Shown here: positions 18,001 to 21,000 of the stretch, in pieces
Layout: each line of letters starts with the position of its first letter
How positions within the stretch are numbered: position 1 is the first letter of the stretch
Assembly: GCA_030265395.1 (NCBI GenBank)
Contig: JARFYF010000052.1
Span: 125,120,471 to 125,184,470, forward strand
Reading direction: 5' to 3'
Source of the DNA: Rhina ancylostomus
Lineage: Eukaryota
Length of the DNA: 64,000 nucleotides
Made by a program: the position numbers

Positions 18001-21000
18001 GGCATATTTCAAACTCACAGAAAAAGGGAGGCGCCAGGAAGGGAACTTCGCTTTAGGATTTACAGTAGGCTGCATATTGTGACGAGTTATGGATCTGCTG
18101 AGAAAAGTTATCCTCTTGTCCACTTTCCTTATCATTGTTGATTCTGCCCCACCGACTTGTTATTCGGCTGTTTTGAAATTAAGCAAGGGAATTATGGTTT
18201 CAATGGAAAGATTAGAGAAATTTCCCGTCACGGTAAATCAGAAGAGCAATATGTTCACTTGATTATTCCGTTGTGCTTGTGGAATAGTTACATGAATATG
18301 TTTCCTCCACAGAGACGTTGTGTTGCTAACTTGCCCAAACTCTATATTGATGTGCACGTAAGTACTTTTGATTTCAGGAAAACAGCGTTGGCGCTGTTAT
18401 TATTTCAATGATCCTTGATGAAAATATTGACGAAACTTATTCGTGTTCCAGAATGCTTGCGTGTTGACCAAACTTCGCGATCACATCTATGCTTTGGAAA
18501 ATCTCATCACTCCTGACTGCAAGGAATTAAAACGAATTGCTTTCCTGAAATTCCGCATTGGGCGCTTGTATAATATGATCGGCCGGCTCTGCCACCGGGT
18601 AATATATAGACATCTGGTTAACATCTTCTCGACTTGAATGCCACCTCTTAAGCGAAGACCATAGATAGGAATATCTTTATTTCAAAAAAAAAATCACATG
18701 AATATATAAAGATAGAACGTTCAAGTCAACATTTTCAAAACAAGTAACGTTATTCCATTACTTAACATGAACATACCATCCGTTATCATTAATTTACAAA
18801 TTTAAAGTATATCGTTCATGGGATTTTAAACACAACAGGTGGGCACGGTAACCTCAACATATTACCATGCTTACCCATTATAAGCTTATCATGGTTTTGA
18901 GCTGGTTTCCAGTTGTGTAATGTTGGACTTACCGAGACCACTGTATATACCTCAGTGTCATTGATTACATTTGTTATTTTTACAGGATCTTGTGTTTTTT
19001 GCTGATGATTGTCCAGCGCTAGAACGCCCTCCACCCCCAGAAAGTCAAGAAGACAACTTGAAGTGAAGCCTCACACACAAAATGCTGGAGGAACTCAGCA
19101 GGCGAGGCAGCATCTGTGGAGAGAAAGAAACAGTCGAGGTTTCGGGTCGACTGTGTATTTCCCTCCATGGATGCTGCCTGACCTGCTGAGTTCCTCCAGC
19201 GTTTGTGTTGCTCCAGATTCCAGCGTCTGCAAAATCCCTTGTGTTAAAGTGAAGCCTTTATAAAGCAGAAGATAGATTGAGTAGGTGTCACGTGTTCTGT
19301 ATTAGTACTACAGCCTTCCAGTAAGGAAAAACCTACTACGTTATTTTAACCACAGAGTATTTGTTTTAGTAGGGTAGTGCAAACGTGGATTATGCCGAAC
19401 AAAATCGTTTGATATACTGTATTCAATGAACTAATCAGTTTATGTGTATTATATGAGAGGTGACGTGTGGCTGTGGACTAAAACTAGTTTGGTCCTCTGA
19501 TTAATGCTGGAATGTACAAAAGTGAACAACGTTAGCAAAATAAATGACTATGTTACCATTAGCAGTGTATTCTTGTCTCGTCACTTGTATGATTGTTGGT
19601 CCTGCTGTATCTACACAGGAGGTTGCTGGCACTTTGTACAAATGATTTTCTTTGAATGGCTATCAAATCAATTTCACTTCAGTGTTATTTCTACATGTCC
19701 TTATATTACGCTTTCCTTTTCAACCAGATATCCAATTCTCTTTTGAAAACCATCAATAAATCTGCTTTCACCAGTATTTCATCCCAGTCCCAGGACATAA
19801 ATGCAGGAGTTCCTCAGGGCAATATCCTAAGCCCCACTATCTCCAACTGCTTCATCAATCATAAGATCAGAAGTAGGGATGTTTATTCATTATTTCANNN
19901 NNNNNNNNNNNNNNNNNNNNNNNNNNNNNNNNATTCCTTACCAAGTGAACCAGTTCACATCAGACTTTGATATGTTACAAGTGACATCTGTGTCACAAAA
20001 TTACTAGCCAATGAGAGTCCAGCCACTTAACCAAAACACTGACAATTCTTTCCCCCTGACAAATGCTGCTCAACCTGCTGAGCTCCTCTGGCAGATTGCT
20101 GCATTTACCCTTGATGTTCAATGGCACTACCCAAATCCCCTACCATTGACCAGAAACTCAACTACATACAGGGAGCAAATCAAAGGCTGGGTGTGCTGTG
20201 GCAAGTGACTCACCTCCTGATGACCCAAAGCCTTACCACCATCTACAAGGCACAAATTAAGAGTAGAGGTTGGAATACTTTCTACTGGCTTGGAGGATTG
20301 AAGCTTCAACCATCCTCCAGAAGCTCCACACCATCCAGAACAAAGAACCTCACTTTACTGGTACCTAATTCATGACCAAAAAACTATTTTCTTACAGAAC
20401 TGGCAGACACGACTATTATGTATATATTTACAAAGTACAGTGTGGTTAGTCACCTCAGCTACTTCAACAGCACTTGCTAAAGGACAAGGGCAGCTGGTGC
20501 ATGGGAACATCAGCATCTTCAGACTCTCCATGATGTTGCACACCAACCTCACTTGTAAATAGTCCTTCACTAGTCCTTCATCATCACTGGGCCTAAACCC
20601 TGGAACTCCCTGCCCAATAGAATTGTGGAAGCACTTTCACTAGAAGGATCACAACAATTCAAGGTGGTGGTTGATCACCAACTTCTTCAGGGCAATTGGG
20701 ACTGAACAATTTATCTTCAACAACAATGATCTTAAAAAAATGAAATAAAATCATCTCAAATTTATTTCACGATTATGTATTGGTCAATGAAAATCATTAA
20801 TCACTTGCAACATTAACTGTTTCAGTTTTCACAGATACTGCCTAACCTGCTGAGTATTTCCAGTATAAACAGAACAGAACACAAAACAGTACAGCAGAGG
20901 TTCCTTTCAGCCCATGATGTCTGTGCCAACCATGATGCTAAATTAAACTAAACCCATCTGCCTGCACATGGTCTATATCCCTGCATTTCCTATCTGCTCA

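What the first reader, a model, noticed from the sequence alone, without database searches (positions are those of the whole stretch)
18089..19066. Intact CYTL1-family cytokine gene next to LRRC27: candidate second CYTL1 ohnolog absent from the human locus
Seen: an intact 4-exon, 138-aa secreted protein with six Cys, split across short ORFs so the ORF track misses it, about 7 kb upstream of LRRC27. Known: human CYTL1 is single-copy and divergent from STK32B on 4p16, while LRRC27 is head-to-head with STK32C on the paralogous 10q26 block, where no CYTL gene is known to me. Inference: this is the whole-genome-duplication paralog ('CYTL2'), kept in this lineage. That matters because CYTL1 is a chondrogenesis and cartilage-homeostasis cytokine. 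Automated annotation may already label it simply 'cytokine-like protein 1'.
Basis: partly seen in the sequence, partly recalled or inferred. Interest (0 to 1): 0.85.

Follow-up and report, generated by a model that had tools for sequence, protein, structure and literature searches.

The report
Ray CYTL1 cytokine gene beside LRRC27
This is an intact gene for the small secreted cytokine-like protein CYTL1 in a ray-like cartilaginous fish, already annotated under that name in related species, and its only unusual feature is that it sits next to LRRC27 rather than next to the genes that flank it in humans.

Summary
Window 18089-19066 (+) carries an intact four-exon, 138-codon CYTL1-family gene. 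All three introns are GT-AG, all exons are phase 0, and six Cys are present. Exons 1, 3 and 4 each hit Pfam PF15153 in colinear order. The four exons tile the annotated Mobula hypostoma 'cytokine-like protein 1' at 88-93% identity. A complete ten-exon LRRC27-like gene starts 7,034 bp downstream on the same strand.

The 'second ohnolog' reading is not shown. In the protein database, 16 of 16 chondrichthyan species listed have one CYTL protein each. All are close to this one and all are named cytokine-like protein 1. A tree of 46 named proteins gives three clades (chondrichthyans, ray-finned fishes, tetrapods), and no pair of gnathostome-wide clades.

The linkage appears real. In 6 of 8 elasmobranch species listed for both genes, the CYTL and LRRC27-like proteins come from contigs of identical length, so from the same chromosome.

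Three origins stay open: differential loss of CYTL ohnologs, differential loss of LRRC27 ohnologs, or a relocation. No STK32 exon lies in the window, and no vertebrate genomes could be searched. The gene is known; its altered neighbourhood appears unreported.

The parts
17975..17981 (+). TATA-like CATAAAT, 108 bp upstream of the ATG; a possible core promoter element (inference only)
   Evidence: Read. There is no CpG island here.
18089..18232 (+). CYTL exon 1: ATG, hydrophobic leader, then the invariant PTCYS motif with Cys 1 (48 codons)
   Evidence: PF15153, 38.4 bits; 88% identity to Mobula.
18313..18357 (+). CYTL exon 2 (15 codons, Cys 2)
   Evidence: (93% identity to Mobula). It is flanked by AG and GT.
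18452..18598 (+). CYTL exon 3 (49 codons, Cys 3-5)
   Evidence: PF15153, 50.5 bits; 90% identity to Mobula.
18986..19066 (+). CYTL exon 4 (26 codons, Cys 6, TGA stop)
   Evidence: 19.4 bits, below the cut-off; 92% identity to Mobula.
19080..19204 (.). Palindromic repeat element just after the stop codon, inside the likely 3' UTR
   Evidence: 58-nt arms, 86% complementary; the 19-nt core has 8 matches in the window against 0 expected.
19539..19544 (+). First AATAAA on the + strand after the stop codon; a candidate poly(A) signal
   Evidence: The motif is very common in the window (231 matches), so this is weak evidence.
19898..25269 (.). Interval between the two genes, holding four N runs (19898-19932, 21995-22094, 23668-23767, 25207-25269)
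   Evidence: The join of the CYTL-bearing piece to the LRRC27 piece rests on scaffolding across these runs.
25401..26400 (.). The only clear CpG island of the window, at the 5' end of the LRRC27-like gene
   Evidence: CpG observed/expected 0.74-0.96, against a window median of 0.18.
26101..57365 (+). LRRC27-like gene with ten coding exons. Exact ends: 26101-26280, 31681-31811, 33749-33807, 34022-34174. Approximate ends, from tblastn matches: 35665-35886, 38953-39117, 47291-47380, 50534-50614, 55400-55522. Last exon 57228-57365, including the stop codon.
   Evidence: splice sites; LRR_8, E 2.3e-8; named relatives; colinear with residues 1-427 of the 430-aa Hypanus sabinus protein; stop codon.

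Best explanation
The gene is this species' copy of the single CYTL1-family gene of cartilaginous fishes. The species is a batoid that is not among those listed in the database. The gene encodes a 138-residue precursor: a hydrophobic leader of about 20 residues, then a mature protein of about 118 residues that starts near the invariant PTCYS motif. By inference from a model of the Mobula orthologue, the mature protein folds into an all-helical bundle. Its six invariant cysteines probably form three disulfides. It most likely acts as a secreted ligand, as mammalian CYTL1 does (chondrogenic and cartilage-protective; chemotactic through CCR2 in mammals). It lies 7 kb upstream of an LRRC27-like gene, in the same orientation. 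That linkage holds at chromosome level in other elasmobranchs and differs from the human order MSX1-CYTL1-STK32B. Shown here: gene structure, family membership, orthology group, the neighbour, and same-chromosome linkage. Inferred: secretion, fold, disulfides and function.
For: Structure and family. All 19 invariant columns and all six Cys of 44 named members are kept. Orthology group: exon 3 alone retrieved 4 of 8 candidates, all chondrichthyan and all named cytokine-like protein 1. A profile of those four gave 214 hits among 335 candidates. The 120 listed include 16 chondrichthyan species, each with one protein. In the tree (46 named rows plus window exons 1 and 3 as separate rows), both exons fall in the batoid clade (100/100*), inside a chondrichthyan clade (100/97*). 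Only one CYTL locus is in the window. Neighbour: 13 of 15 candidates hit, including Xenopus laevis LRRC27 and two 'LRRC27-like' sharks. The ten exons are colinear with the Hypanus protein. That protein is 31% identical to Xenopus LRRC27 over 410 aa, E 8.7e-43. Fold: the AlphaFold2 model of the Mobula orthologue has pLDDT 83.2 and pTM 0.69, with helices only. Expression of a shark orthologue: a figure legend names 'cytl1-positive cells' in epaulette shark fin (bioRxiv 10.64898/2026.02.08.704681, one passage). Mammalian functions come from passages of the review PMC6697716.
Against: Single copy is not proven. 94 of the 214 hits were not shown. 41 of the 44 exhaustive-search representatives are unnamed and were not examined. 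This genome itself could not be searched beyond the window. In 2 of the 8 species the contig lengths differ; those values appear to come from different assemblies, so they neither support nor contradict linkage. Four N runs lie between the two genes. The fold is a prediction for an orthologue, and its best PDB matches are not significant (0 matches at E <= 0.001, TM at most 0.43). No expression data exist for this species.
Confidence: 0.8

Rival explanations
1. Hidden paralogy of CYTL. The pre-duplication block carried STK32-CYTL. Both ohnologs survived until cartilaginous and bony vertebrates split. Cartilaginous fishes then kept the copy in the STK32C/LRRC27 (human 10q26-type) block, and bony vertebrates kept the STK32B/MSX1 (4p16-type) copy. 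On this reading the gene is 'CYTL2' even though it is the only copy.
For: The human orders are MSX1-CYTL1-STK32B-...-CRMP1-JAKMIP1-...-PPP2R2C (PMC4804413, gene lists) and PPP2R2D-...-JAKMIP3-DPYSL4-STK32C-LRRC27-PWWP2B (PMC4411697, gene list). The slot beside the STK32 gene therefore holds CYTL1 in one block and LRRC27 in the other. The window puts CYTL directly upstream of LRRC27. Linkage is conserved in 6 of 8 elasmobranchs.
Against: No STK32 exon is seen in the 18 kb to the left, so the block type is unknown. The three-clade tree fits simple orthology just as well. No lineage with both copies was seen. NCBI gives the plain name 'cytokine-like protein 1' but calls the neighbour 'LRRC27-like' or 'uncharacterized'. 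That is a weak hint that the neighbour, not CYTL, is the one whose orthology is in doubt.
Confidence: 0.3
2. Hidden paralogy of LRRC27 instead. The window is the 4p16-type block, so CYTL is a true orthologue of human CYTL1. Cartilaginous fishes kept an LRRC27 ohnolog there that bony vertebrates lost.
For: It needs the same number of losses as the CYTL version. 8 of the 10 named chondrichthyan entries for the neighbour are named 'uncharacterized', 'hypothetical' or LRSAM1-like by NCBI, and only 2 are named 'LRRC27-like'. The Hypanus protein is 31% identical to Xenopus LRRC27.
Against: LRRC27 may simply evolve fast. No second LRRC27-like protein was seen, though only 15 candidates were scored.
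Confidence: 0.25
3. Lineage-specific relocation. A single CYTL1 gene was moved by a rearrangement or a small transposition, either in the chondrichthyan stem or in bony vertebrates.
For: The coding part of the gene spans only 1 kb and sits among repeats. The family tree shows one gene lineage (PMC10792014).
Against: If STK32C is the left neighbour, landing in exactly the paralogous slot by chance would be an unlikely coincidence.
Confidence: 0.2
4. One reading: this genome carries two CYTL genes, this 'CYTL2' and an STK32B-linked CYTL1 elsewhere.
For: Nothing found here supports it. It survives only because 94 weaker hits and 41 unnamed representatives were not examined.
Against: There is one protein per species in 16 of 16 chondrichthyan species listed. 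No duplicate clade appears in the tree. The literature reports simple dynamics for CYTL.
Confidence: 0.1
5. Scaffold misjoin: the 7.7-kb piece holding CYTL (14306-21994, between two 100-N runs) is misplaced next to LRRC27.
For: There are 17 N runs in 64 kb, four of them between the two genes.
Against: The two genes share a chromosome in 6 of 8 other elasmobranchs. Scaffold order is correct across eight N runs inside the LRRC27-like gene, whose ten exons are colinear with orthologues.
Confidence: 0.05

Closest known systems
Chondrichthyan 'cytokine-like protein 1' (for example Mobula hypostoma, 138 aa, P0001)
   Same: Same length, same exon tiling, and 88-93% identity per exon. It falls in the same batoid clade. 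Mobula birostris has its LRRC27-like gene on the same chromosome.
   Different: Only the species differs. The window's own protein was not among the listed hits.
Tetrapod and mammalian CYTL1 (Pfam PF15153; human gene at 4p16 between MSX1 and STK32B)
   Same: It matches the family profile, has a leader followed by PTCYS, keeps the six invariant Cys and all 19 invariant columns, and is small and apparently secreted.
   Different: The Mobula orthologue is 43-47% identical to the named tetrapod rows. Tetrapods lack six residues that are present here and in ray-finned fishes. The neighbour is LRRC27-like rather than STK32B/MSX1.
Four-helix-bundle cytokines (IL-11, IL-6, G-CSF, IL-2, thrombopoietin)
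   Same: The model is all-helical, and these are the best PDB matches.
   Different: None of the matches is significant (best E 0.19, TM 0.29-0.43, 12-19% identity). A profile search of PDB sequences gave only chance hits. Membership is not shown.
CC chemokines such as CCL2 (an IL-8-like fold was proposed for CYTL1; CCR2 is reported as a receptor)
   Same: Mammalian CYTL1 is reported to act through CCR2 (PMC6697716 and PMC10792014, passages).
   Different: The model has no beta strand. PMC10792014 concludes that CYTL is not homologous to chemokines.

Membership tests
CYTL1 family (Pfam PF15153) | Match to the family profile above its curated score of 27 bits | tested here: met
   exon 1 alone scores 38.4 bits and exon 3 alone 50.5 bits. 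Exon 4 scores 19.4 bits, below the cut-off. Exon 2 is too short to search. The matches are colinear on the profile (2-42, 61-109, 110-131 of 133).
CYTL1 family (Pfam PF15153) | Six invariant cysteines | tested here: met
   C24, C51, C66, C86, C110 and C121 are invariant in 44 named members; all six are present in the window's exons.
CYTL1 family (Pfam PF15153) | Hydrophobic N-terminal leader followed by the invariant P-T-C-Y-S motif | tested here: met
   The leader is modelled as helix 2-17 in the orthologue. No signal-peptide predictor was available, so cleavage is inferred.
CYTL1 family (Pfam PF15153) | Secretion and receptor activity (CCR2 in mammals) | not testable with these tools
   Only literature on mammals is available.
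Separate ohnolog 'CYTL2' | Two clades, each spanning jawed vertebrates | tested here: not met
   there are three clades: chondrichthyans 100/97*, tetrapods 100/98*, actinopterygians 97/93*. The only within-species pair is goldfish, and its two copies are sisters.
Separate ohnolog 'CYTL2' | A second CYTL gene in the same genome or lineage | tested here: inconclusive
   No second locus is in the window. There is one protein per species in 16 chondrichthyan species among the 120 hits listed. 94 hits were not shown and 41 unnamed representatives were not examined. The rest of this genome was not searchable.
Separate ohnolog 'CYTL2' | STK32C as the upstream, head-to-head neighbour | tested here: inconclusive
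   no kinase motif other than chance DFG triplets in any frame of the window. Only 18 kb lies to the left. A short first exon would escape this scan.
Separate ohnolog 'CYTL2' | LRRC27 as the downstream neighbour | tested here: met
LRRC27 (the neighbour) | Leucine-rich repeats plus full-length colinear similarity to a named LRRC27 | tested here: met
   LRR_8 at E 2.3e-8. Xenopus laevis LRRC27 at E 2.9e-7 with one exon; 31% identity over 410 aa, E 8.7e-43, between the Hypanus orthologue and Xenopus LRRC27.
LRRC27 (the neighbour) | Orthology to the 10q26 gene (reciprocal best hit, shared flanks) | not tested
Four-helix-bundle cytokines | Four-helix bundle superposable on a solved cytokine | tested here: inconclusive
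   the model is all-helical, but the best match is IL-11 at E 0.19 and TM 0.41.
IL-8-like chemokine fold | Three-stranded beta sheet packed against a C-terminal helix | tested here: not met
   DSSP finds no strand in the model of the orthologue (pLDDT 83.2). This is a prediction, not a solved structure.

The most novel reading that the evidence does not exclude
The gene annotated 'cytokine-like protein 1' in all cartilaginous fishes is not the orthologue of human CYTL1. It would be the other product of the vertebrate genome duplication, retained in the STK32C/LRRC27 block, while bony vertebrates retained the STK32B/MSX1 copy. That would be reciprocal gene loss hidden by a species-tree-like gene tree.
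Probability: 0.3. Interest if true: 0.5.

Novelty: already known. Interest (0 to 1): 0.3.

Why it matters
CYTL1 is studied as a cartilage-homeostasis and chemotactic factor, and cartilaginous fishes are an obvious comparison. If the shark and ray gene were a hidden paralogue of the tetrapod gene, functional comparisons and orthology tables would need a caveat. It would also be a clean small example of reciprocal ohnolog loss. If it is plain orthology with a changed neighbourhood, the finding is routine. My four synteny-directed searches returned no paper that mentions the CYTL-LRRC27 linkage. The one evolutionary study found treats CYTL as a single simple lineage.

Tried and rejected
- One search failed because one LRR exon piece had 19 residues. 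It was left out and the other three pieces were searched.
P0005 and P0007 were named.
- P0006 was checked locally because its 54% identity to the ray protein exceeds that of every named tetrapod. It is closest to named teleosts (63% to Megalops), so it is not a second chondrichthyan copy.
- The Atlas search with an LRRC27 exon gave only generic LRR clusters, all scoring under 0.9.
- The kinase-motif scan of all six frames found nothing but chance DFG triplets.
- Pfam on ten long ORFs of the left flank gave 0 of 10 with a family.
- The PDB sequence search with the family profile gave two chance hits, E 0.51 and 0.83.
- The fold search gave 0 matches at E <= 0.001.
- Literature searches: CYTL1+LRRC27 found 3 papers and CYTL1+STK32C found 2 papers. 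I saw titles and abstract starts only, and none concerns evolution or synteny.
- CYTL1 plus shark/skate terms gave one relevant legend.
- The supplementary CYTL trees, reconciliation and species table of PMC10792014 were not seen. They would show whether any shark in that study had two copies.
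Full report
**What is there.** Window 18089-19066 on the + strand holds four short coding exons with canonical signals.
- Exon 1: 18089-18232, starting at ATG, with GT at 18233.
- Exon 2: 18313-18357, with AG before and GT after.
- Exon 3: 18452-18598, with AG before and GT after.
- Exon 4: 18986-19066, with AG before, ending in TGA.

Every junction is phase 0. The total is 138 codons with six cysteines. 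The exons lie in four different stop-to-stop ORFs of 59, 89, 68 and 33 aa, so an ORF list does not show the gene. Anything that needed a full-length protein used a database protein instead.

**Family.** All 3 exons searched hit Pfam PF15153 (CYTL1) in colinear order.
- Exon 1: E 1.4e-9, 38.4 bits, profile positions 2-42.
- Exon 3: E 2.5e-13, 50.5 bits, positions 61-109.
- Exon 4: E 1.1e-3, 19.4 bits, positions 110-131.

The curated cut-off is 27 bits. Exon 2 has 15 residues and is too short to search. Exon 3 alone, searched against longer proteins, found 4 hits among 8 candidates. All four are chondrichthyan proteins named cytokine-like protein 1 (Mobula hypostoma, M. birostris, Hemitrygon akajei, Pristiophorus japonicus). 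Aligned as separate rows, the four exons tile the 138-aa Mobula hypostoma protein without gap or overlap, at 88, 93, 90 and 92% identity. This independently supports the splice model. In an alignment of 44 named family members, 19 columns are invariant, including six Cys. The window keeps all 19.

**Is it a second paralogue?** Several results bear on this.
- An exhaustive HMMER scan with the Mobula protein found 44 cluster representatives at E <= 1e-3.
- A profile of the four chondrichthyan proteins found 214 hits among 335 candidates, of which the best 120 were listed.
- Those 120 include 16 chondrichthyan species, each represented once and each named cytokine-like protein 1 by at least one source. 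Identity to the Mobula protein is 61-100%.
- Next come sturgeon, paddlefish and bowfin (54-56%), then teleosts, amphibians, sauropsids and a marsupial (40-52%).
- From the 115 named rows I took 46: 15 chondrichthyans, 3 non-teleost ray-fins, 18 teleosts, 3 amphibians, 6 sauropsids and 1 marsupial. The 69 named rows left out were mostly further teleosts and birds, plus the Chiloscyllium plagiosum isoform. The 5 unnamed rows were also left out.
- With window exons 1 and 3 added as separate rows, the maximum-likelihood tree has three clades: chondrichthyans 100/97*, tetrapods 100/98*, actinopterygians 97/93*.
- Both window exons sit in the batoid clade (100/100*). The only within-species pair, goldfish, forms sister tips.

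So there are not two gnathostome-wide clades. This agrees with Aleotti et al. 2024 (PMC10792014, passages read). They state that the CYTL tree mainly reflects the species tree, that its dynamics are very simple, and that CYTL is a novelty of jawed vertebrates. Their supplementary trees were not seen.

Some limits remain.
- 94 weaker hits were not displayed.
- 41 unnamed representatives were left unused.
- One unnamed representative, P0006, was checked and is teleost-like.
- The window has only this one CYTL locus, and the rest of the genome was out of reach.

**The neighbour.** On the same strand, an LRR gene starts at ATG 26101, which is 7,034 bp after the CYTL stop codon. The only clear CpG island of the window lies at 25.4-26.4 kb.
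- One exon hits LRR_8 at E 2.3e-8.
- Another exon, searched against longer proteins, gave 13 hits among 15 candidates. Ten entries come from nine chondrichthyan species. NCBI names two of them 'leucine-rich repeat-containing protein 27-like', six 'uncharacterized', one 'hypothetical' and one 'LRSAM1-like'. The list also includes Xenopus laevis 'leucine-rich repeat-containing protein 27' (E 2.9e-7) and two unnamed hits.
- TBLASTN maps ten colinear exons from 26101 to 57353, covering residues 1-427 of the 430-aa Hypanus sabinus protein. The stop codon is at 57363-57365.
- The Hypanus protein is 31% identical to Xenopus LRRC27 over 410 aa, E 8.7e-43.

The name LRRC27 is therefore reasonable. Strict orthology to the human 10q26 gene was not tested.

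**Is the linkage real?** The window has 17 N runs. Four lie between the two genes, and the CYTL gene sits on a 7.7-kb piece between two 100-N runs. Two results argue against a misjoin.
- The ten LRRC27-like exons are in the right order across eight N runs, so local scaffolding is sound.
- The database reports the length of the longest contig for each protein. For the eight species listed for both genes, that length is identical to the base in six: M. birostris 211,042,505; Hemitrygon 202,954,487; Rhinoraja 143,700,780; Heterodontus 287,946,412; Heptranchias 198,562,713; Stegostoma 194,051,863.

In Chiloscyllium punctatum and Scyliorhinus torazame the lengths differ. One value in each pair is a small scaffold, so they appear to come from different assemblies and are not comparable. 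Same chromosome is not the same as adjacent, but the linkage spans both sharks and rays.

**What the position means.** Human gene lists in chromosomal order give two blocks.
- ...STX18, MSX1, CYTL1, STK32B, C4orf6, EVC2, EVC, CRMP1, JAKMIP1 ... PPP2R2C (PMC4804413).
- PPP2R2D, BNIP3, JAKMIP3, DPYSL4, STK32C, LRRC27, PWWP2B (PMC4411697).

That these are paralogous blocks from the vertebrate genome duplications is established knowledge, which I recall rather than cite.

The window cannot say which block it belongs to. No kinase exon occurs anywhere in it, 0 of 10 left-flank ORFs match a Pfam family, and nothing recognisable follows LRRC27 up to 64 kb. Three histories fit.
- Reciprocal loss of CYTL ohnologs.
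- Reciprocal loss of LRRC27 ohnologs, with CYTL a true orthologue.
- A relocation.

The first two need the same number of losses, and the gene tree cannot separate them.

**How it likely works.** An AlphaFold2 model of the Mobula orthologue, built from 44 aligned sequences, has mean pLDDT 83.2 and pTM 0.69. It is entirely helical: leader 2-17, then helices 24-44, 46-52, 67-79, 84-88, 90-109 and 121-125.
- No PDB chain matches by sequence.
- By fold, 0 matches reach E <= 0.001. The best weak matches are IL-11, G-CSF, IL-2, thrombopoietin and IL-6, with TM 0.29-0.43.
- No chemokine appears among the matches shown, and the model has no beta strand. This does not fit the IL-8-like fold proposed earlier for CYTL1 (cited). 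It agrees with the view that CYTL is unrelated to chemokines.

I infer a secreted helical ligand in which the six invariant cysteines probably form three disulfides.

The review PMC6697716 (passages) describes mammalian CYTL1 as follows: a signal peptide at residues 1-22; expression in chondrocytes and CD34+ cells; induction of Sox9 and IGF1; normal skeletal development but more cartilage destruction in knockout mice; and chemotaxis through CCR2. A shark orthologue marks a cell cluster in epaulette shark fins (one legend). A cartilage or connective-tissue role in this species is inference only.

**Verdict.** The gene is known and already annotated under this name in related species. The 'second ohnolog' claim is not supported as stated. 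The conserved CYTL-LRRC27 linkage in elasmobranchs is real and, as far as searches show, unreported. It leaves a hidden-paralogy reading open at about 0.3. I do not take the window for human. By best hits it is a batoid.

Noticed in passing
window 19080-19204; also 13677-13807, 25137-25296, 20074-20092 and 36050-36068: A palindromic, MITE-like repeat family. The copy just after the CYTL stop codon has 58-nt arms that are 86% complementary. Its 19-nt core occurs 8 times in the window against 0 expected.
   Followed up: partly
alignment A3, columns about 87-92: All named tetrapod CYTL1 proteins shown lack six residues that are present in chondrichthyans and ray-finned fishes, between the third and fourth conserved Cys. 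This looks like a deletion specific to tetrapods.
   Followed up: no
protein P0027: An unnamed 1,242-aa database protein has seven separate CYTL-like stretches. It may be a tandem array or a fused gene model in some vertebrate. It was not fetched because it is unnamed.
   Followed up: no
window 25401-26400: This is the only clear CpG island of the window (observed/expected up to 0.96 against a median of 0.18). It lies at the 5' end of the LRRC27-like gene. The CYTL gene has none, as expected for a tissue-restricted gene.
   Followed up: partly
whole window: There are 17 N runs in 64 kb. Six are exactly 100 long and eleven have other lengths (10 to 710). None was filled or looked up.
   Followed up: no
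NCBI names the CYTL gene plainly in cartilaginous fishes. It names the LRRC27 neighbour mostly 'uncharacterized' or '-like', and once 'LRSAM1-like'. The neighbour's annotation is inconsistent across species.
   Followed up: no
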